A stretch of 36,271 nt of DNA, taken from the UHGV virus genome UHGV-0245185. One strand, written 5' to 3'. The notes under the pieces were generated by a model, which saw only the letters and a program-made list of their open reading frames with translations, did not search any database and was not told the DNA's origin. Below are positions 11,963-20,698 of this stretch, in pieces (the first letter of the stretch is position 1; the number at the start of each line of letters is the position of its first letter). The position numbers and the translations under genes are program-made. The DNA comes from a virus.

Positions 11963-12139
11963 TCAAGTATTGTAAAACATTCGATGCAATCGTTTATATT
12001 GCCGAATCATCTTTTTAGTAGGACGAGAATAAGTTCCTACACAAGTGGTCATATTAGGGTCTGTAGAATTTCCTTTAATAAAAAGTTTCCAAACCTTACC
12101 GCCATTTAACTTTTCAGTATAAATCAATTCAGTTTTCAT
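11963..12139 (-). CDS. Possible small ORF (58 aa) between pin and 49, not in the ORF track
   Basis: ATG at 12139 overlaps the pin stop; translation MKTELIYTEKLNGGKVWKLFIKGNSTDPNMTTCVGTYSRPTKKMIRQYKRLHRMFYNT; TGA at 11963. Confidence 0.3.
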   Translation of the reverse strand: MKTELIYTEKLNGGKVWKLFIKGNSTDPNMTTCVGTYSRPTKKMIRQYKRLHRMFYNT

Positions 12140-12585
12140 TAAAACGCTCGGTCAGAAAAAGAAATTTGAGTTTCAAGCCATTCAATATATTCTGCTGCAG
12201 CTTGCATCAAATTTCCTTCATAACCATCATTATTTTCTTGTGCAGCTAATTTAGCTAATGCATATGAAATACGTTCACCTTGAAAAGCGGCTTCAGGCTT
12301 CTGAATAACTTGATCAATTCGTTCTACAACTTCTTCAATTTCGCCATTTTCCGCTGATTCAGTATTCCACAAGCACCAATACGTAATTGGCTTATCATAG
12401 ATGTTAATAATCTTTCCATCAGAAAGTTCAATTTCAATAATTCCAGTATCAGGTTCTATATCATCTTCGCATTCTTTTACAAGTTCACGAACTTTAAAGA
12501 CAGTACCTGCACTAAGTTCCGGCCAGTAATTACACAGCCCTTTATCAGCACGATTAATTCTAAACCATTTATCTACTGCAATCAT
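12139..12585 (-). CDS. pin: Hypothetical protein in the T4 pin position (putative Lon protease inhibitor, synteny only)
   Basis: The track ORF starts at TTG 12603; the ATG at 12585 (MIAVDKWF...) is preferred. Assigned from gene order 49 > pin > 49.1. Confidence 0.45.
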   Translation of the reverse strand: MIAVDKWFRINRADKGLCNYWPELSAGTVFKVRELVKECEDDIEPDTGIIEIELSDGKIINIYDKPITYWCLWNTESAENGEIEEVVERIDQVIQKPEAAFQGERISYALAKLAAQENNDGYEGNLMQAAAEYIEWLETQISFSDRAF

Positions 12586-12625
12586 GTCCCATCTCCATAT
12601 CAATTAAGTCGTTTATCGTCGGTTC

Positions 12626-12708: not shown

Positions 12709-13029
12709 TTATAGCGTAATCCATTCTCGTACTGTTTGAGTTACTACACGTTCACGGGGCTCGACTAGTTCAACAGTCGGAACTGCATAATACCAGTCAG
12801 AATGATAAGAACCTGAGCGAGATTCATTTACGGAAACATGTACATTGTGTTTTGGACTAAAATAAACACACTGACGATATTGGCATTTACCATCTTGCAC
12901 CCAGTCTTCTATTTCGATAGGTTTAAGATAATCCGAAAAATCGAAATCATAATTTTCTGAAAATGCATCATGGTCTTCGATGATTTCACTCAGAACTGCA
13001 TCAACATCTAATTTATTTTCAATATTCAT
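12709..13029 (-). CDS. Hypothetical protein (106 aa; 49.1 position)
   Basis: ORF track; ATG start. Confidence 0.5.
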   Translation of the reverse strand: MNIENKLDVDAVLSEIIEDHDAFSENYDFDFSDYLKPIEIEDWVQDGKCQYRQCVYFSPKHNVHVSVNESRSGSYHSDWYYAVPTVELVEPRERVVTQTVREWITL

Positions 13030-13249: not shown

Positions 13250-13428
13250 TTAGAAATAGACTTTTCACCATTAGAATAATAAACTTCAAGTTTAGCACGA
13301 TTATTTTTAATTTGAATAACCTTGGCTGTCATCAAAGTTCCATACCCATAGTAAACTGCGACTTCATCACCTACATATACCGCGCTTCCGCGGTAATCAT
13401 GGATATAATCAGTTCCTTCGAGCATCAT
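13213..13428 (-). CDS. Hypothetical protein (71 aa)
   Basis: ORF track; ATG start. Confidence 0.5.
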   Translation of the reverse strand: MMLEGTDYIHDYRGSAVYVGDEVAVYYGYGTLMTAKVIQIKNNRAKLEVYYSNGEKSISKWKYGDCMVKLG

Positions 13429-13688
13429 TTAAAGTATTCCCGCAATTGGTCAAATCCACCAATATGACTTCCATCAGGAGCAAATACTTGCGGCATTGTC
13501 AAACCAATTTGAGTATCACGACCTAGTTTCGTCAGAAGCTCAGCGATTTTCTCATCATCAAAAACACCTTTTTCCGGCATAATATTGATAAATTCAAACG
13601 GTTGTTTCTTAACAGTCAAAAGACGTTTTGCATTATCACAATACACGCATTTATGGATACTGCTATCATAACCATATACTTTAAACAT
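13425..13688 (-). CDS. nrdC: Thioredoxin/glutaredoxin NrdC
   Basis: 87 aa with CVYC redox motif; start overlaps the stop of the upstream ORF. Confidence 0.85.
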   Translation of the reverse strand: MFKVYGYDSSIHKCVYCDNAKRLLTVKKQPFEFINIMPEKGVFDDEKIAELLTKLGRDTQIGLTMPQVFAPDGSHIGGFDQLREYFK

Positions 13689-14023: not shown

Positions 14024-14236
14024 TCATTCAGGACAATTAGGAACGTTTTTAGAAGCCCTTTCGCGGCGTTCAACCATAGCCATAATGGCATCCCAAGCTG
14101 GAGGTTTAAAATCTAAATCGTCACAACCATGAATCTTTCCACGCATTTCCAGATCGTCTTCTTCACCAGCCATAATAATTTTAATTAGACTGGAATTACT
14201 TGAAGCTGCAATATCTTCTAATAGACGCTTTTTCAT
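14024..14236 (-). CDS. Hypothetical protein (70 aa)
   Basis: ORF track; ATG overlaps the stop of the next gene (ATGA). Confidence 0.45.
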   Translation of the reverse strand: MKKRLLEDIAASSNSSLIKIIMAGEEDDLEMRGKIHGCDDLDFKPPAWDAIMAMVERRERASKNVPNCPE

Positions 14237-15159
14237 TTCAGCACCTCAATAGCATCACGTAAACCATCTGCTTTGGCGGTTAAAGCCTTAAGAACTTTAG
14301 TATGCTCTTCAATCTGTTTTTCAACTTCAATCAAACGAGCACTGAGATATTCACGTTCTTCTTTCATAGTATCATTCCCATGATTGTGCTTTGGTGTAGG
14401 TTTAAATTCGCTGGGGTCCTTTAACTTAATAACAAATTTAGTTTCAAACAGTGAAAGACCATAATTCGTATTATCATCAAAGGATTTAACTACATCCATA
14501 TTAGATAATAACTCACGCAAATTATAAGCCAAAGAACTAATAGTTTCATTGTGTTTATTAGCTTCGTGCGGTTTCATATACGGAAGATTTTTATATATCT
14601 CGTGCGGAGCACAAATGATAATTGATAATTCAAATTGTCCATTCTGGGATGATGGAGTGAATTTAGCAGTAACCCAGTCTTTTACATTCACATTAATAGT
14701 ACGATTATCACCATGACAAAACAGTCTACGAGAATGCTTAAAAAGCATATTAACGTTCTCATTAAATTCACCTGAAAACTCACTAGCGAATTTTTCTTTA
14801 CTATTTTTAGAAAACCATTCTTCTAAATAAGTTCTTTTCACGTCATTAATAATATTAAATGTAACAACATTAGCATTTGATACATTAGTCTCAATGTAGC
14901 TTGGATACATAAATTTTTTAACATTATTAACAGCTATTACAGAAGATAGTAATCGGGAACGTTTGAACCACTCTAGCAAAGAACCAAGAGAATGTGAATA
15001 TGCATTTTGTGTATCTTTACAAATATGGTTTTCCCATCCAATATAGTCTAAAAAATCACGAAGAATATTATTGATTACTGCTCTGTGTCCGATCTGATAA
15101 TTACGGTGTTTAGTAATAAGGCTGTCAAAATAATCAATATAATGTTTACGAGTTTTCAT
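14233..15159 (-). CDS. Paralog family member 1 of 4 (308 aa) with C-terminal coiled coil
   Basis: ORF track. Shares motifs with the next three ORFs (HSRRLFCHGD, LAYNLRELLSNMDVV) and ends in a heptad-like tail. Confidence 0.6.
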   Translation of the reverse strand: MKTRKHYIDYFDSLITKHRNYQIGHRAVINNILRDFLDYIGWENHICKDTQNAYSHSLGSLLEWFKRSRLLSSVIAVNNVKKFMYPSYIETNVSNANVVTFNIINDVKRTYLEEWFSKNSKEKFASEFSGEFNENVNMLFKHSRRLFCHGDNRTINVNVKDWVTAKFTPSSQNGQFELSIIICAPHEIYKNLPYMKPHEANKHNETISSLAYNLRELLSNMDVVKSFDDNTNYGLSLFETKFVIKLKDPSEFKPTPKHNHGNDTMKEEREYLSARLIEVEKQIEEHTKVLKALTAKADGLRDAIEVLK

Positions 15160-15211
15160 GTTCTTCTCACTTGGTTAATGATTTATACTCCGAGCCATCC
15201 TTGGCTTTAAA

Positions 15212-16213
15212 TTACTTAATTAACTGTAAAGCTTGTTCAAGACGATCCAGGCGATTAACAGATTCTTCCCAAATCCTTTTAGCCTGCTCATAATCTTTCT
15301 GCGCTTTATTAGAAATTTCTAGAACTTCTTTATAAGCTTTTTCTAGTGCAATAACTTCTGGACGAATTTCTACCGGTTCAGGTGAATCGTCAAGACATTC
15401 CATTAGTTCCTCAAGGGTAGTTTCTTCTTTAGGAGTATTCACAATTTCATCACATTTTTGTTGGTAAATTTCTTTATCAGTCGGTGAGTACGCACACTTT
15501 ACTTCACGGAGACTAACTACAATTTTATATCCTTCCCAACCGCATATATTCTTAAAAGGATAAGTATGAATATTTTCTACTGTTTCCATACAAAGTAATG
15601 CGGTCTCTAACTGACGAGTTATATCGCTAGCAATTGAGAAAAATTTATTAATGTTCTTTTGATTAGCTTCTGGTGTAAAAAATTCATAATTCACAAAAAT
15701 AGCTGCTTTATTTTTATCAAGCTCATATTCTTTTATGATAATCATATCAGAAGCCCAAGGATGGATTTGACGATAATCACCATAGCATAATTTAGAAGCT
15801 GATTTTAGAAGTTGCTTCTTGAAAAGTCTGAAATTACTAATCCAACGACGAGTAAAAATATTCTCAGGGTCTTCTTTATTATTAAGATGATAAGAATTAA
15901 CATCACCGAACCAATTATATCCTACTACATCTTTAGTTCGTTTAATTTCTTTCCCAAATTTACTAAGAATATCTCTGTTGACTAAGTATGAAAGAAGACG
16001 AGAACCTTTAAAGGTTTCCTTAATATCATCTTTATATTCGCAACTAGAAATTTTATGAACTTCATGAATAAATTTGTCGGAAGAAACAATACTTGCATCA
16101 GTATTGTTGAGCCACTGATTGATAATAGAAAGAACACTATTCTGACTAGACATAGATTTAACTTTATCATCAATAACGCTATTGAATGATTTGATATATT
16201 CGTTACGAGTCAT
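15212..16213 (-). CDS. Paralog family member 2 of 4 (333 aa) with C-terminal coiled coil
   Basis: Track 15212..16243; the ATG at 16213 (MTRNEYIKSF) has a strong SD (GAGGAG) and aligns with the member-1 N-terminus (MKTRKHYIDYF). The track start would sit inside the promoter -10. Confidence 0.6.
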   Translation of the reverse strand: MTRNEYIKSFNSVIDDKVKSMSSQNSVLSIINQWLNNTDASIVSSDKFIHEVHKISSCEYKDDIKETFKGSRLLSYLVNRDILSKFGKEIKRTKDVVGYNWFGDVNSYHLNNKEDPENIFTRRWISNFRLFKKQLLKSASKLCYGDYRQIHPWASDMIIIKEYELDKNKAAIFVNYEFFTPEANQKNINKFFSIASDITRQLETALLCMETVENIHTYPFKNICGWEGYKIVVSLREVKCAYSPTDKEIYQQKCDEIVNTPKEETTLEELMECLDDSPEPVEIRPEVIALEKAYKEVLEISNKAQKDYEQAKRIWEESVNRLDRLEQALQLIK

Positions 16214-16241
16214 ATTAATCTCCTCAGTAGAAAGTAAGAAC

Positions 16242-16271
16242 ATTATACCACATCCTTGTGGCGAAGTAAAC
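16242..16271 (-). promoter_or_regulatory. T4-type early promoter upstream of paralog 2
   Basis: Minus strand GTTTAC-TTCGCCACAAGGATGTGG-TATAAT; the spacer holds a small palindrome CCACA-AGGA-TGTGG. Confidence 0.5.
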
Positions 16272-17299
16272 TAGTTTAGTGCATTTAGTGCATTGTTCAG
16301 TTTAGAACGTTGCTTCGTGAGATTTTTGACTTTTTCTTGAGCTTTTTCTAGCATCTTTTCAGCTTCTAACACTTCATTAGTTGCTTTAACGAGTTCATCA
16401 TCTACTGCCTTGATAGACTTTTCAATCGCATTCGCGTGCCATTTTTCAACAGGTTTAAGACTCGGATTTTCAATAGGAAGAAAATTCACTTTATTGAATT
16501 TCCATGCATCTTTATTACCTGAACTATACATCCAAAATTTAGGATCGTTTGATGAGTAATTAGATAAATTTAAGTTATAGTTATCTTGCACTTCTTGCTT
16601 TTTCTCTTGCGTAACTTCGTCCTTTCTCAAAAAATCATATTTAAATGAAACGATCATATCAAGTTCATACGTTGTTGTATGTTCCCAATTTCGTTCAAAA
16701 CGAGGTAAAATCTTAGACTGAACGGCGGCAACAACATCCATATACTTAAATGCTTCTGTCAACTGCGATTTAAGGCATTCGCAAATTGAAAGAGAATTTT
16801 TTGTATTAGGTTTAAAGCTAATTCGCGCAGTTCTGTTATTTTCTTTTAATGGTCTTACTTCCATCTGAAGAGTATAACCATCAAATTTCAGATTCTTTAA
16901 GTTAATATCAGAACCTTTTAATCGACTCGCAATTGATAAAATTTGTTTTAATTGTTTACGGAATAGAGCAATAAATCTCCATTCAATACGATAATGATTT
17001 GGATTGAAAAATCCAGATGATAAATCGACCTTACTTTGACCAACGCCTTGAACAAATAGAGGATTTTTATAATCAATAGTTTTACAGAAATCGGTGAGCT
17101 GCTCACGAGCAGTCATTTGTGTAATATATCCTGCTTGGTTAAAATTGCGCACCCATTCACTGCTGTTCAGATGTTTAAAGGCATGAATGGAACAATTAAC
17201 TTTACCAAGGTCTAAATTATTTTCACACAAAAACGTCATAGCATCACGAGTATAGCTGGCATTACGAACCATATCTTCAATTTGAGAACGAGTTTTCAT
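16271..17299 (-). CDS. Paralog family member 3 of 4 (342 aa) with C-terminal coiled coil
   Basis: ORF track; shared motifs ASRLKGSD and CLKSQLTEAFKYMDVV; ATG start. Confidence 0.6.
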   Translation of the reverse strand: MKTRSQIEDMVRNASYTRDAMTFLCENNLDLGKVNCSIHAFKHLNSSEWVRNFNQAGYITQMTAREQLTDFCKTIDYKNPLFVQGVGQSKVDLSSGFFNPNHYRIEWRFIALFRKQLKQILSIASRLKGSDINLKNLKFDGYTLQMEVRPLKENNRTARISFKPNTKNSLSICECLKSQLTEAFKYMDVVAAVQSKILPRFERNWEHTTTYELDMIVSFKYDFLRKDEVTQEKKQEVQDNYNLNLSNYSSNDPKFWMYSSGNKDAWKFNKVNFLPIENPSLKPVEKWHANAIEKSIKAVDDELVKATNEVLEAEKMLEKAQEKVKNLTKQRSKLNNALNALN

Positions 17300-17307
17300 G
17301 GTGTTCC

Positions 17308-18198
17308 TTAAGATTTAAGTAAATCGACAATTTTAATTAACTTTTCACGCTCAGATTTAGCTTTACTACTCAGTCCAGATAGTCTGAAAATTTCATCATC
17401 ATATTGTTGAATAGAAATATTCAGCTCTTCAATTTGCTTATTAAAATAATCAATTTGTTCAGAATGTTTTTCGTTACTACGAACTGGTACAGGTTTCGTA
17501 GGCAATGTAGTTGAACTGGATTCATCCGGGCGGTAAATTAAAATACAACTTGAACCAATAGGGCATTTTGCACCAGATGAATATTCTAATGTTCCAGATT
17601 CTTTTAAAACTTCAAAAGCTAAACAGAGATGATGCCCCATATTAATATAATCTGTAGAGCGAGCTCTGATGTAATAATCATCGCCACGAATACTAAATTT
17701 AAAGCATTTAAGGTCTTCTGTATTATTGGTCTTAAAAATCATTTGTTTATCTAGACCTTTAGCTAATCGAGCGCCCAATGCTAATAATCGTCGTTGATTT
17801 TCCCACAAATCCGCAATCATTTGATCGAATGATAATTTCGGCATTAGTCGACCGTAAAGGTCATATCCTTTATTATAATTACGAAGGATTTCATTCGCGT
17901 TAATACGAGACAATGCTCCAATTTTATTAAGAGCTTTCATAATGCGATTAGATAAACTCATTCCAGATCCGTTTGTTCGCTGCAAATGTTTTTCTAATCC
18001 AAATCCAATATCAACTTTAAACTTATCTAAAATTTCTGCATGAACATCTCTGTCAATAACATTCAAATCCAAAGTTGAGTTAAATCTATGAAAAAATTTA
18101 TCTGGCTCTGCACTGCGAAATACAGTCCATTCATTCATCATTTTTTTATTAACTAAAGATTTAATTACTGCATTGACATTATTAATTACTACTGACAT
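17308..18198 (-). CDS. Paralog family member 4 of 4 (296 aa) with C-terminal coiled coil
   Basis: The track start at 18219 is TTG; the ATG at 18198 has SD GAGGAAA. Shared motif GARLAKGLD. Confidence 0.55.
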   Translation of the reverse strand: MSVVINNVNAVIKSLVNKKMMNEWTVFRSAEPDKFFHRFNSTLDLNVIDRDVHAEILDKFKVDIGFGLEKHLQRTNGSGMSLSNRIMKALNKIGALSRINANEILRNYNKGYDLYGRLMPKLSFDQMIADLWENQRRLLALGARLAKGLDKQMIFKTNNTEDLKCFKFSIRGDDYYIRARSTDYINMGHHLCLAFEVLKESGTLEYSSGAKCPIGSSCILIYRPDESSSTTLPTKPVPVRSNEKHSEQIDYFNKQIEELNISIQQYDDEIFRLSGLSSKAKSEREKLIKIVDLLKS

Positions 18199-18205
18199 AT
18201 TTTCC

Positions 18206-18613
18206 TCACTCAATTTCAATTTTACTAAATATACAGAATAAGATGGAACAGACTATATAAGCACCACACACAGATTGAACTAATACCATTCCAAAGAACC
18301 AAACAATATTATCAAACAATGTCTGTTTTACGTCGAAAGGACGTAAACTTACAGTAATATTATCACCTTTTTCTATTGAAGAATACATCTCTGGGGAAAT
18401 ATATTCACTAAATCTATAACCGTCTTTTAGTTCATATACGGCAATAAACGATAAACTAGACCCTTTTCCTTGTGTTCCTGTAATGGTATTAACTACAGTA
18501 ACATCATAATCTTTATAATGCATATAATCATTAATTGCGTAATAACCATATGCAATTACTACACATAAACAACATATCAATAAATTCAATCTTTTAATTA
18601 TCAACTGTTTCAT
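18206..18613 (-). CDS. Membrane protein (135 aa; N-terminal and C-terminal hydrophobic segments)
   Basis: ORF track; ATG start; hydrophobic termini. Confidence 0.55.
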   Translation of the reverse strand: MKQLIIKRLNLLICCLCVVIAYGYYAINDYMHYKDYDVTVVNTITGTQGKGSSLSFIAVYELKDGYRFSEYISPEMYSSIEKGDNITVSLRPFDVKQTLFDNIVWFFGMVLVQSVCGAYIVCSILFCIFSKIEIE

Positions 18614-18668
18614 AATAATCTCAATTAAAAGGGCTTAGAACCATTATACCATCCTTGGTATAAAGCGG

Positions 18669-19196
18669 TTATGCGAGTACCGTCTTTAACCGTTCTTCAA
18701 ACTTCCGAAGAGTATTTTGGCGTTCAGCTCTTTGCTTTTTGTAAGTTTCAATACGCTCTGAAATGAGAGTGTATCGTTCATTTACTGATTCTTTCATAAA
18801 ATCAGGAATTTCACGAGAAGCTTTAATCTCGTCAAATTTATCAATAACAGCTTGCTCTTCAGCAATTAAGTTATCATACATTAAAATATCTTTCTTGATG
18901 AACTCAATATCTTCTTGAGTTACACGAGATAATTTAGATGCTTTATCCTTTTTGTACTGTTTGTTAGTATCACGAGACCAGTGTAATGTACGATTTTTAT
19001 TCGTATTTTTGTAAATTTCTACAATACCGATCTCATCAATAATAACAATCCAATTCCAACGTGATTTGTAAATTTGTCCTCCATCAACAGTGATTTCACC
19101 TCCGATTGAGATGTCATTAAAGAACTTGCTTTGTGCTTCAGATTTAAATTTACCATCGTTATAATTTACTAAGTTGAAAATATCTTTAGCGTTCAT
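18669..19196 (-). CDS. Hypothetical protein (175 aa)
   Basis: ORF track; ATG at 19196 preceded by GGAGGAACAG, which forms the 3' arm of the promoter hairpin. Confidence 0.55.
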   Translation of the reverse strand: MNAKDIFNLVNYNDGKFKSEAQSKFFNDISIGGEITVDGGQIYKSRWNWIVIIDEIGIVEIYKNTNKNRTLHWSRDTNKQYKKDKASKLSRVTQEDIEFIKKDILMYDNLIAEEQAVIDKFDEIKASREIPDFMKESVNERYTLISERIETYKKQRAERQNTLRKFEERLKTVLA

Positions 19197-19660: not shown

Positions 19661-20629
19661 TTATTTCAGAAGAGTAACCTCAGCAATTTCTTCCCAACCG
19701 TTTTTGTCGGTCATAATAAAGTCAGCAAGATAAAGAGCAGTACGCAGTGAAACATTGCGTAAACGATTAACATTAACTTTCATCCATGATAATGCTTTAT
19801 AAGTTTCTTCATCAGAAAGACCGCGCTTTTGCATCATGTCAGTTGAAAGAATAACATCTTCAACTCTGACCATAATTTCTTCATTAGTGTGAACACCTAA
19901 ATCCAAATAAACCGAGCGGGACACTAATGCTTGTAAATGTGGAGCAAGTTTAGTACCACGGTCTAATTCGCGGTCAATGTCAACGTTTGTGATAAAAACA
20001 ATCGTTCCTTTAAATTCAAACTCACGCTCAATGCCTTTTTCTTCTAAGTAAGAAGACGCAGTGCTCCAGCAGACTTTACGGGTCTCTCCAGTGTCCAGAG
20101 CGGCTTTTAGAAGATTAAGAATATCCATATCAGAGAAAACATCCACATCATCAATCAAAAGGACAGAATTCTCTTCACGATTATTCCAAAGCTGCTCATA
20201 AAGACCAATACCAGAGATTTTACCATTAATGCTTTTATATTCAATGTATCCAATATCATTTGCTTTATTCAAAGCTTTATCTAAAGAATACGTTTTACCA
20301 ATACCTGCTGCGCCAGAGATAATCAATGAACGAATATTTCCATTAATAATACCATTCGTCATCATTCCCATAACATTAAATCTTTTATTAATGCGGGTTT
20401 TCATATCTTCATACGATTCTTTAACTTCTTCAACTTTTACACCGTCATATGAAATATCTGATTTGTAAACCCAAACACCGCGACGTTTACCGTCAATTTC
20501 AACAAAAACTTTACCATCTCCTTGTGCATCTACCGGAGCATTATCTGGGAACCATTCGCCTAAAAGCTCAAAAGTTCCAGAGATTTCTTTACCGAAGTAG
20601 ATACCCTTATTGATAGTTACAGTTTTCAT
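19661..20629 (-). CDS. P-loop ATPase (AAA-like; Walker A GAAGIGKT, Walker B LLIDDVD)
   Basis: The track start at 20647 is GTG; the ATG at 20629 has SD GGAGAA. Occupies the T4 nrdC.10 position. Confidence 0.65.
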   Translation of the reverse strand: MKTVTINKGIYFGKEISGTFELLGEWFPDNAPVDAQGDGKVFVEIDGKRRGVWVYKSDISYDGVKVEEVKESYEDMKTRINKRFNVMGMMTNGIINGNIRSLIISGAAGIGKTYSLDKALNKANDIGYIEYKSINGKISGIGLYEQLWNNREENSVLLIDDVDVFSDMDILNLLKAALDTGETRKVCWSTASSYLEEKGIEREFEFKGTIVFITNVDIDRELDRGTKLAPHLQALVSRSVYLDLGVHTNEEIMVRVEDVILSTDMMQKRGLSDEETYKALSWMKVNVNRLRNVSLRTALYLADFIMTDKNGWEEIAEVTLLK

Positions 20630-20698
20630 TTTATTCTCCAATTTCACATTTGTTTTAATAGTGTAATAGTATCACACTACTACCCTACTGTAAACAAT

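What the first reader, a model, noticed from the sequence alone, without database searches (positions are those of the whole stretch)
14233..18219. Four tandem paralogs (296-342 aa), each with a divergent N-terminal domain and a C-terminal coiled-coil tail
The four consecutive ORFs share internal motifs (NMLFKHSRRLFCHGD / LFKKQLLKSASKLCYGD / LFRKQLKQILSIASRLKGSD / RRLLALGARLAKGLD, and a later L...L....MDVV block). Each ends in a 40-60-aa heptad-like tail (for example ...EKQIEEHTKVLKALTAKADGLRDAIEVLK). Each has its own SD, one has its own promoter, and a membrane protein follows. This looks like an expanded, diversifying family; its function is unknown.
Basis: seen in the sequence. Interest (0 to 1): 0.55.

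Follow-up and report, generated by a model that had tools for sequence, protein, structure and literature searches.

The report
T4 nrdC.3–nrdC.6 anti-defence paralog array
Four neighbouring early genes of a T4-like phage are distant copies of one gene; one copy (nrdC.5) is already known to switch off the bacterial immune protein Dsr1, so the other three are probably untested inhibitors of other host defences.

Summary
The window is a Tequatrovirus (T4-like phage). The four minus-strand ORFs are nrdC.3 (308 aa), nrdC.4 (333 aa), nrdC.5 (342 aa) and nrdC.6 (296 aa).

They are true paralogs, not compositional look-alikes:
- nrdC.3–nrdC.4: profile-profile E 2.6e-14.
- nrdC.5–nrdC.3/4: E 6.6e-8.
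- nrdC.6 joins through AlphaFold models. The nrdC.4 model hits a nrdC.6 entry in BFVD (E 6.6e-5), and both models share six other hits.
- nrdC.6 also joins through a sequence chain via single-copy homologues in Klebsiella and Enterobacter phages.

All four have the same architecture: a helical N-domain, an α/β core carrying three collinear motifs, a disordered linker, and a 45–55-aa C-terminal helix with heptad character.

Copy number is 1 in Moonvirus, Jiaodavirus and Karamvirus, 3 in Mosigvirus and Dhakavirus, and 4 in Tequatrovirus. The genes evolve faster than their neighbours. nrdC.3 has two alleles only 60% identical.

T4 nrdC.5 (91% identical here) counteracts the SIR2 defence protein Dsr1 (eLife 2022). 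The whole nrdC.1–6 block is dispensable on laboratory hosts.

The parts
14233..15159 (-). nrdC.3 (308 aa), paralog 1. Helical N-domain, α/β core, coiled tail.
   Evidence: ORF. phrog_1435 E 3.5e-99. hhalign vs the nrdC.4 family: prob 98.3%, E 2.6e-14 over 209 columns. 91% identical to T4 nrdC.3. Two allele classes, >90% and ~60% identical.
15212..16213 (-). nrdC.4 (333 aa from the second ATG), paralog 2.
   Evidence: phrog_1435 E 3.2e-164. Homologues carry PF26897 Phage_T4_Y04OP. AlphaFold model: pLDDT 84.4, helices 3-84, β 88-110, H119-148, hairpin 158-174, H185-208, hairpin 212-235, tail helix 285-332.
16271..17299 (-). nrdC.5 (342 aa), paralog 3. Orthologue of the T4 anti-Dsr1 gene.
   Evidence: Pfam DUF7235 E 8.7e-125, full length. 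91% identical to T4 nrdC.5. T4 nrdC.5 restores plating on Dsr1 cells (PMC9391042). hhalign vs the nrdC.3/4 profile: E 6.6e-8, prob 94.6%.
17308..18198 (-). nrdC.6 (296 aa from the ATG), paralog 4 and the most divergent.
   Evidence: phrog_2257 E 4.2e-151. Homologues carry PF26899 Phage_T4_Y05B. AlphaFold model pLDDT 78.2, with the same order of secondary-structure elements as nrdC.4. Foldseek hits are shared with nrdC.4.
14911..14970 (-). Shared motif 1 in nrdC.3 (WFKRSRLLSSVIAVNNVKKF). Equivalents: nrdC.4 15956-16015, nrdC.5 17087-17146, nrdC.6 17875-17934.
Evidence: Aligned by hhalign. Coordinates.
14707..14751 (-). Shared motif 2 ('...GD' helix-turn) in nrdC.3. Equivalents: nrdC.4 15776-15826, nrdC.5 16907-16966, nrdC.6 17749-17793.
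Evidence: Aligned by hhalign. Falls on the equivalent helix in both models. Coordinates.
14488..14520 (-). Shared motif 3 (L..A...MDVV block, end of the long core helix) in nrdC.3. Equivalents: nrdC.4 15578-15610, nrdC.5 16730-16762, nrdC.6 17596-17628.
   Evidence: Also present in the single-copy homologues of PKO111, Entb_43 and Moon.
14236..14361 (-). C-terminal amphipathic helix (coiled-coil-like tail) of nrdC.3. Equivalents: nrdC.4 15215-15358, nrdC.5 16274-16438, nrdC.6 17311-17466.
   Evidence: Heptad score vs shuffles. AlphaFold long helices. Common terminal pattern. The tail is conserved between nrdC.3 alleles while the core diverges. The tail occurs as a module on an unrelated N-terminus in P0230.
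16242..16270 (-). Early σ70-type promoter in front of nrdC.4 (TTTACT-17-TATAAT with TG).
   Evidence: Annotated 'early promoter 50.0' at the same place in T4 record U76612.1.
18206..18613 (-). nrdC.7, a small membrane protein directly upstream. It is a neighbour, not a family member.
   Evidence: ORF with two hydrophobic segments. phrog_2547. Located elsewhere in RB69 and missing from this place in Dhakavirus, so coupling is not conserved.

Best explanation
nrdC.3, nrdC.4, nrdC.5 and nrdC.6 are four ancient paralogs of one Straboviridae-specific protein family.

Shown:
- They share a fold of four parts: a helical N-domain, an α/β core, a flexible linker and a C-terminal coiled-coil-like helix.
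- They are transcribed early.
- They are dispensable on laboratory E. coli.
- They evolve quickly, and their copy number varies.
- The T4 orthologue of nrdC.5 neutralises the SIR2-domain abortive-infection protein Dsr1.

Inferred:
- The family is a panel of immune-protein inhibitors.
- Each paralog is made before late proteins appear. It binds a different host defence protein, or a different variant of the Dsr1/Avs7-type sensor, through its variable α/β core.
- This binding keeps the sensor from firing when the capsid protein accumulates.
- The conserved C-terminal helix makes the inhibitor oligomeric, which would give avidity for oligomeric defence proteins.

The array probably grew by duplication before the Tequatrovirus, Mosigvirus and Dhakavirus genera split. 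It is still being reshuffled by loss, allele replacement and chimera formation.
For: Homology:
- hhalign nrdC.3-nrdC.4: E 2.6e-14.
- nrdC.5 (profile enlarged with Dhakavirus and Mosigvirus members) vs nrdC.3/4: E 6.6e-8, 146 columns.
- The nrdC.6 profile links to Entb_43 (E 1.5e-6, 198 columns), Entb_43 to PKO111 (E 1.2e-4, 205 columns), and PKO111 to nrdC.3/4 (E 4.7e-7).
- Shuffle controls support these scores.

Structure:
- Both models have the same element order.
- The nrdC.4 model hits JS10 nrdC.6 in BFVD at E 6.6e-5.
- The nrdC.4 and nrdC.6 models share six third-party hits (IME523, PM2, Acj9, Acj61, Cronus, fHe-Yen9-01), all ~300-370-aa proteins of T4-like phages.

Function anchor:
- T4 nrdC.5 expressed from a plasmid restores plating of a T4 deletion mutant on MG1655 carrying ECOR17 dsr1 (PMC9391042).
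- The window's nrdC.5 is 91% identical to it.

Dispensable: a viable T4 deletion of 'nrdC.1-6' exists (PMC9825161).

Early expression: promoter sequence and T4 annotation.

Arms-race signature:
- dN/dS is 0.14-0.30, against 0.00-0.09 for conserved neighbours (nrdC.10, nrdC.9, nrdC.8, nrdC.1, nrdC, 49.2, 49, nrdD).
- nrdC.10 is 99-100% conserved in 453 records, while nrdC.3 splits into >90% and ~60% alleles.
- Variation is concentrated in the core, with the tail and first 72 residues conserved.
- Copy number is 1, 3 or 4.
- Natural chimeras and deletions occur.

Neighbourhood: gp49.2 (OLD inhibitor, PMC13096335) and pin lie just downstream.

No enzyme signature: no hits in Pfam, NCBIfam, PADLOC or PDB sequences. 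This fits a binding protein.
Against: - Only nrdC.5 has any experimental link to defence. That experiment does not show direct binding.
- No paper found here tests nrdC.3, nrdC.4 or nrdC.6.
- dN/dS is raised but well below 1, so relaxed constraint is not excluded.
- The oligomeric state of the tail was not modelled. Monomer models cannot show a coiled coil.
- Paralogs at 12-26% identity may have diverged in function altogether.
- The nrdC.6 link rests on Foldseek E-values with low TM-scores (0.36-0.47), because domain orientation differs, and on weak direct profile scores (E 0.002-0.009).
Confidence: 0.6

Rival explanations
1. The family has a housekeeping or host-takeover role unrelated to immunity, for example modulating a host or phage process early in infection. 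On this view the rescue by nrdC.5 on Dsr1 cells is indirect. It could delay or sequester the capsid protein that triggers Dsr1, or buffer NAD+.
For: - The eLife experiment shows rescue only, not binding.
- Dsr1 is triggered by the major capsid protein (preprint PMC12803255), so any factor that changes free MCP levels could rescue.
- A single-copy member is kept at the same locus in several genera, which suggests some general use.
Against: - The block is dispensable on laboratory hosts.
- It is among the fastest-evolving genes of the region.
- Members are lost, fused and replaced in natural phages.
- No enzymatic or nucleic-acid-binding domain was detected.
Confidence: 0.2
2. The α/β core descends from, or mimics, a phage tail-terminator protein. 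The early-made paralogs would act as decoys that occupy host receptors built to recognise conserved virion folds, without activating them.
For: - Bacterial sensors for tail terminators and other virion folds exist, such as Avs15.
Against: - There is no sequence-profile similarity to any tail family in Pfam or PHROGs.
- The one known target, Dsr1, senses the capsid protein, not the terminator.
- A faithful mimic would be expected to trigger rather than block.
Confidence: 0.1
3. The similarity among the four ORFs is compositional chance, arising from AT-rich coding and lysine/glutamate-rich helices. They would then be unrelated genes.
For: - Plain pairwise BLASTP is weak: E 6e-4, 0.04 and 1.5 for neighbouring pairs.
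- Coiled-coil tails align spuriously with one another.
Against: - Profile scores lie far above column-shuffled nulls.
- Alignments are collinear over 140-240 columns outside the tails.
- Independent AlphaFold models share topology and BFVD neighbours.
Confidence: 0.02
4. They are thioredoxin-like or nucleotide-metabolism proteins, as many GenBank records label them, or they are virion components.
For: - Records annotate them 'thioredoxin'.
- They lie next to nrdC, nrdD and nrdG.
Against: - There is no thioredoxin or glutaredoxin Pfam or NCBIfam hit for any of the four, while the true nrdC lies at 13425-13688.
- The predicted fold is not a thioredoxin fold.
- They have an early promoter and are dispensable.
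- The label is spill-over from the gene names.
Confidence: 0.03

Closest known systems
T4 NrdC.5 (Pfam DUF7235, PF23882), the anti-Dsr1 factor of Srikant, Guegler & Laub, eLife 2022
   Same: The window ORF 16271-17299 is its orthologue: 91% identical, full-length DUF7235 match, same locus. The other three ORFs are distant paralogs with the same architecture.
   Different: nrdC.3, nrdC.4 and nrdC.6 are only 12-26% identical to it. They sit in separate Pfam and PHROG families (PF26897, PF26899; phrog_1435, phrog_2257). No function has been tested for them. No mechanism is published even for nrdC.5.
DSAD1, the SPbeta-group phage inhibitor of the SIR2 defence protein DSR2
   Same: Like nrdC.5, it is a phage-encoded, non-enzymatic protein that neutralises a SIR2-domain NAD+-depleting abortive-infection protein whose sensor recognises a virion protein. 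Binding of inhibitor and trigger to DSR2 has been studied structurally (abstracts listed).
   Different: The host and phage group differ. No sequence comparison was made here. DSAD1 is not known as a tandem paralog array or as carrying a coiled-coil tail. Dsr1 and DSR2 have different sensor domains: Dsr1 has a TPR sensor for the capsid protein, while DSR2 senses the tail tube.
Phage tail-terminator / tail-completion proteins (lambda gpU, T5 p142, SPP1 gp17-like, DUF3168)
Other anti-defence genes of T-even accessory regions (gp49.2 anti-OLD, TifA, Dmd, AdfA, IPI-III)
   Same: All are early, dispensable, fast-evolving, strain-specific counter-defence genes clustered in the same kind of hyperplastic region. 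gp49.2 lies 1.2 kb downstream of the array.
   Different: Those are single small proteins with unrelated folds. Here a ~300-aa multi-domain protein has been expanded to four copies.

Membership tests
NrdC.5 / DUF7235 (PF23882) | Full-length match to the Pfam model above its gathering score | tested here: met
   ORF 16271-17299: E 8.7e-125, 416.6 bits against a cut-off of 30, model positions 1-307 of 307. The other three ORFs do not match this model.
NrdC.5 / DUF7235 (PF23882) | Orthology to the T4 gene shown to counter Dsr1 (same locus, high identity) | tested here: met
   91.2% identical to T4 nrdC.5 over the full length, between nrdC.6 and nrdC.4.
NrdC.5 / DUF7235 (PF23882) | Ability to restore phage growth on Dsr1-carrying cells | not testable with these tools
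   Shown only for the T4 allele (PMC9391042). It needs plaque assays.
Phage_T4_Y04OP (PF26897) / phrog_1435 | Significant match of nrdC.3 and nrdC.4 to one common family model | tested here: met
   phrog_1435: nrdC.3 E 3.5e-99 and nrdC.4 E 3.2e-164. All nrdC.4 homologues, and a chimera carrying the nrdC.3 C-half, carry the precomputed PF26897 label. The local Pfam copy lacks this model.
Phage_T4_Y05B (PF26899) / phrog_2257 | Significant match of nrdC.6 to the family model | tested here: met
   phrog_2257 E 4.2e-151. All 105 homologues carry PF26899.
One superfamily uniting nrdC.3, nrdC.4, nrdC.5 and nrdC.6 (proposed here) | Profile-profile similarity beyond composition, collinear over the globular part | tested here: met
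   E 2.6e-14 (nrdC.3 vs nrdC.4), 6.6e-8 (nrdC.5 vs nrdC.3/4) and 0.002-0.009 (nrdC.6 vs the others). A transitive chain runs through Entb_43 and PKO111 at 1.5e-6, 1.2e-4 and 4.7e-7. Shuffle z-scores are 3.5-28.7.
One superfamily uniting nrdC.3, nrdC.4, nrdC.5 and nrdC.6 (proposed here) | Common three-dimensional fold | tested here: met
   Models exist for nrdC.4 and nrdC.6 only. They show the same element order, a reciprocal or shared Foldseek hit set, and a hit of the nrdC.4 model to JS10 nrdC.6 at E 6.6e-5.
Coiled-coil proteins | Long uninterrupted helix with heptad spacing of hydrophobic residues; oligomer formation | tested here: inconclusive
   The heptad score is above shuffles for three of the four tails. 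Helices of 48 residues, and of 27 plus 18 residues, appear in the models. Oligomerisation was not modelled.
Tail-terminator proteins (gpU-like) | Fold similarity to solved terminators | tested here: inconclusive
Tail-terminator proteins (gpU-like) | Sequence-profile membership, late expression, and a role in the virion | tested here: not met
   No tail family appears in Pfam or PHROGs. The genes have an early promoter. The block is dispensable.
Thioredoxin / glutaredoxin (label in many records) | Thioredoxin-fold domain match | tested here: not met
   No such hit in Pfam or NCBIfam for any of the four. The predicted folds differ.
DSAD1-type anti-DSR proteins | Sequence or fold similarity to DSAD1 | not tested
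   No DSAD1 sequence or model was compared directly. PDB-wide sequence searches with the three family profiles found no significant chain. That search would have covered deposited DSR2-DSAD1 complexes.

The most novel reading that the evidence does not exclude
The family would be an exapted virion fold. An ancestral tail-terminator-like α/β domain was fused to a helical N-domain and a coiled-coil tail and moved to early expression. Its paralogs now act as oligomeric plugs for the structure-sensing TPR receptors of bacterial immunity (Dsr1, Avs7 and related sensors). Each paralog would be tuned to a different receptor clade. T-even phages would therefore carry a modular 'anti-pattern-recognition' array, with the variable β-hairpin region as the specificity determinant.
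Probability: 0.12. Interest if true: 0.85.

Novelty: new member of a known kind. Interest (0 to 1): 0.55.

Why it matters
Dsr1 and the related Avs7 sensors are widespread bacterial immune receptors that detect phage capsid proteins. Only one phage countermeasure against Dsr1 is known: T4 nrdC.5, and its mechanism is unknown.

Showing that nrdC.5 is one of four paralogs sharing a fold has three consequences.
- It turns three orphan T4 genes into concrete candidates for inhibitors of other defence systems.
- It points to the variable α/β core as the likely specificity module and to the conserved tail as a common oligomerisation module.
- It gives a natural series for comparison: 1, 3 or 4 copies, and two nrdC.3 alleles in otherwise near-identical genomes. 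This series can be used to map which copy defeats which host defence.

It also corrects a widespread 'thioredoxin' mis-annotation of these genes.

Tried and rejected
- Plain pairwise BLASTP among the four was too weak to decide (E 6e-4 to more than 1). Profiles were needed.
- A scan of IMG/VR with nrdC.3 returned only two near-identical loci. Diversity was taken from GenBank phages instead.
- An exhaustive HMM search of 1.84 billion representatives with the nrdC.5 profile found only 13 proteins, none outside T4-like phages and none from the paralog families. Cross-family links therefore cannot be seen at database-wide E-values.
- nrdC.8 (18669-19196), which also ends in a helical stretch, was tested as a fifth member. 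It showed no similarity (E 0.16-0.5).
- Candidate ~350-aa ORFs next to nrdC.10 in Aeromonas phage AhMtk13a, and ~260-aa ORFs in PKO111 and Entb_43, showed no similarity.
- The Acinetobacter phage Konradin 343-aa ORF is only a weak candidate (E 0.003-0.02, with the same tail ending).
- PDB sequence searches with three family profiles, and scans of NCBIfam and PADLOC, gave nothing meaningful.
- The apparently tail-less T4 nrdC.6 in record U76612.1 is a frameshift of the old sequence. The re-sequenced T4 has the 296-aa form.
- A functional link to the adjacent membrane protein nrdC.7 was considered and set aside, because the adjacency is not conserved.
- The literature searches found no paper on nrdC.3, nrdC.4 or nrdC.6 function, or on these Pfam families.

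Full report
**What the region is.** The 3,987-base stretch matches 503 phage records. The best is Shigella phage vB_SsoM_113 (98.4%), and T4 matches at 93%. In annotated relatives the four minus-strand ORFs are nrdC.3, nrdC.4, nrdC.5 and nrdC.6. They are followed in the direction of transcription by nrdC.2, nrdC.1 and nrdC, and preceded by nrdC.7 (membrane protein), nrdC.8, nrdC.9 and nrdC.10.

**Start codons.** The most likely starts give 308, 333, 342 and 296 aa. The first ATG of the nrdC.4 ORF lies inside the -10 box of an early promoter. The TTG of the nrdC.6 ORF lies inside nrdC.7. T4's own record annotates 'early promoter 50.0' directly in front of nrdC.4.

**Are they paralogs?**
- Plain BLASTP is only suggestive: nrdC.3-nrdC.4 26% over 172 aa (E 6e-4), nrdC.4-nrdC.5 26% over 140 aa (E 0.04), nrdC.5-nrdC.6 E 1.5. 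All these alignments are collinear.
- PHROGs already places nrdC.3 and nrdC.4 in one family, phrog_1435. It places nrdC.5 and nrdC.6 in separate families. Pfam likewise has three families: PF26897 'Y04OP', DUF7235 and PF26899 'Y05B'.
- I built family alignments from the protein searches and from annotated loci of RB69, IME281 and RB9.
- Profile-profile comparison gives nrdC.3-nrdC.4 at probability 98.3%, E 2.6e-14, 209 columns.
- After adding the divergent Dhakavirus and Mosigvirus nrdC.5 proteins, nrdC.5 against nrdC.3/4 gives probability 94.6%, E 6.6e-8, 146 columns.
- nrdC.6 is weak in direct comparison (E 0.002-0.009).
- Against 40 column-shuffled versions of the target profile, the observed scores are 28.7, 17.7, 6.3 and 3.5 standard deviations above the mean. 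Each is above the largest shuffle.

**Structure.** AlphaFold models were made for nrdC.4 (pLDDT 84.4) and nrdC.6 (pLDDT 78.2). They show the same order of elements:
- an N-terminal helical bundle;
- a β-hairpin;
- a long helix ending in the 'MDVV' block;
- a second β-hairpin;
- a low-confidence linker;
- a long C-terminal helix. In nrdC.4 this is one helix of 48 residues. In nrdC.6 it is 27 plus 18 residues.

Foldseek against BFVD finds only ~300-370-aa uncharacterised proteins of T4-like phages for both models. The nrdC.4 model hits JS10 nrdC.6 at E 6.6e-5. Six further targets are shared by the two searches: IME523, PM2, Acj9, Acj61, Cronus and fHe-Yen9-01. TM-scores are low (0.3-0.5), as expected when domains joined by flexible linkers are oriented differently.

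**Sequence chain for nrdC.6.** Single-copy homologues at the same locus give an independent chain. nrdC.6 links to Entb_43 (E 1.5e-6), Entb_43 to PKO111 (E 1.2e-4), and PKO111 to nrdC.3/4 (E 4.7e-7). I conclude that all four are homologous over the whole globular part, not only in the tail.

**Motifs.** Three collinear motifs mark the family (coordinates).

**The tail.**
- A crude heptad score peaks in the last 35-60 residues of nrdC.3, nrdC.5 and nrdC.6 and beats 299-300 of 300 shuffles. For nrdC.4 the score is not significant, although the model shows a single long helix.
- All four, and the single-copy homologues, end in (R/K)xLxxx(A/I)(L/I/V)xxL(K/N).
- The tail behaves as a module. It is conserved between the two nrdC.3 alleles while the core is replaced. 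The exact nrdC.5 tail also occurs on an unrelated N-terminus in one metagenomic protein, P0230.
- Whether it forms a coiled coil, and of what order, was not tested.

**Dynamics.**
- *Copy number.* It is 4 in Tequatrovirus. It is 3 in RB69 (nrdC.3, nrdC.5, nrdC.6) and 3 in Dhakavirus IME281 (nrdC.4, nrdC.5, nrdC.6). It is 1 in Moon, PKO111 (unannotated in the record) and Entb_43.
- *Age of the duplications.* RB69 keeps a true nrdC.3 and IME281 a true nrdC.4. The duplications therefore predate these genera and were followed by differential loss.
- *Rates.* Between the window and RB9, dN/dS is 0.14-0.30 for nrdC.3-nrdC.6, against 0.00-0.09 for nrdC.10, nrdC.9, nrdC.8, nrdC.1, nrdC, 49.2, 49 and nrdD. 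Pin, another anti-host protein, is at 0.29.
- *Alleles.* nrdC.10 is at least 99% identical in 453 records. nrdC.3 splits into alleles of more than 90% and about 60% identity. The divergent part is residues 73-260.
- *Loss and fusion.* A natural 167-kb phage contig carries a broken nrdC.5 fused to the C-half of nrdC.3, with nrdC.4 deleted.

**Function.**
- Srikant, Guegler and Laub (eLife 2022) found that a T4 clone with compensatory deletions could not plate on ECOR17 or on MG1655 carrying ECOR17 dsr1. Plasmid-borne T4 nrdC.5 restored plating.
- The window's nrdC.5 is 91% identical to the T4 protein.
- Dsr1 is a SIR2 NADase. According to a 2026 preprint, its TPR sensor is triggered by the major capsid protein.
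- A viable T4 deletion spanning nrdC.1-6 has been reported.
- The neighbouring gp49.2 is an OLD inhibitor, and pin is a Lon inhibitor.
- No enzymatic or nucleic-acid-binding signature was found in any of the four. No solved structure is related by sequence.
- The most economical reading is that the family consists of early-made binding proteins that block host immune proteins. nrdC.5 is the one characterised case, and the paralogs are aimed at other targets or other sensor variants. This step is inference.

**Novelty and limits.**
- The genes and the role of nrdC.5 are known, and the nrdC.3/nrdC.4 relationship is implicit in PHROGs and Pfam.
- The searchable literature does not contain three things: the union of all four with the anti-Dsr1 gene in one superfamily, the shared architecture, and the copy-number and allele picture.
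- Not done: models of nrdC.3 and nrdC.5, multimer or complex prediction, and any experiment.

Noticed in passing
window 12709-13029 (-) and 12139-12603 (-): These are orthologues of gp49.2 and pin. T6 Gp49.2 was recently shown to inhibit the OLD defence nuclease, and Pin inhibits Lon. The paralog array therefore lies in an anti-defence-rich early region.
   Followed up: partly
window 14233-15159 (nrdC.3) vs L006 7001-7930 (RB9): The allele is mosaic. Residues 1-72 and the tail (265-308) are almost identical, while residues 73-260 are ~45% identical. dS is 1.05, in genomes otherwise ~93-99% identical. This looks like cassette-like replacement of the core domain.
   Followed up: partly
L012 4570-5900 (ENA scaffold, 167 kb): This natural Tequatrovirus has nrdC.5 split into a 115-aa fragment and a 299-aa chimera (nrdC.5 residues 146-272 joined to nrdC.3 residues 137-308 at a short FN..VN match). 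nrdC.4 is deleted.
   Followed up: partly
P0230 (173 aa, from the representative search): An unrelated 120-aa N-terminus carries the exact 53-aa nrdC.5 tail, so the tail can be found as a separate module. The genomic context could not be looked up.
   Followed up: no
L008 13154-14128 (Klebsiella phage PKO111, NC_031095.1): A 324-aa family member lies in a ~1-kb stretch that the RefSeq record leaves unannotated. It matches the nrdC.3/4 profile best (E 4.7e-7) and links to the nrdC.6-like Entb_43 protein (E 1.2e-4) and weakly to nrdC.5 (E 0.0026), so it serves as a bridge between the subfamilies.
   Followed up: yes
L014 2967-3794 (T4 record U76612.1) vs L015 3272-4162 (T4 MT984581.1): The 1990s T4 sequence has nrdC.6 frameshifted to 275 aa without the conserved tail. 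The re-sequenced T4 has 296 aa. The old entry, and the 'Y05B' length derived from it, is probably a sequencing error.
   Followed up: yes
window 15195-15204, 18649-18658 (-), and a one-off variant near 16250: CCAAGGATGG sits just 5' of TATAAT-like boxes upstream of nrdC.3, nrdC.7 and (as CAAGGATGTGG) nrdC.4. There are 4 matches in the window against 0.9 expected (2 of 100 shuffles reach 4). It may be part of the early-promoter spacer, or a small hairpin.
   Followed up: partly
GenBank records listed: nrdC.3-nrdC.6, and even nrdC.10, are labelled 'thioredoxin' in many phage genomes. This seems to have been propagated from the nrdC.x gene names. No thioredoxin domain is detectable.
   Followed up: yes
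window 19661-20647 (-) (nrdC.10): This AAA-like ATPase (weak clamp-loader PHROG hits) is 99-100% conserved across Tequatrovirus. It is found from Acinetobacter to Vibrio and jumbo phages. That contrasts sharply with the variable genes beside it.
   Followed up: no
BFVD entries E5E4A1 and E5E4A2 (Acinetobacter phage Acj61): Two structural relatives of nrdC.4 have consecutive accessions, which suggests an independent tandem pair in an Acinetobacter T4-like phage. In Konradin, a 343-aa ORF next to the glutaredoxin gene (L010 14785-15816) has the same tail ending but only weak profile similarity.
   Followed up: partly
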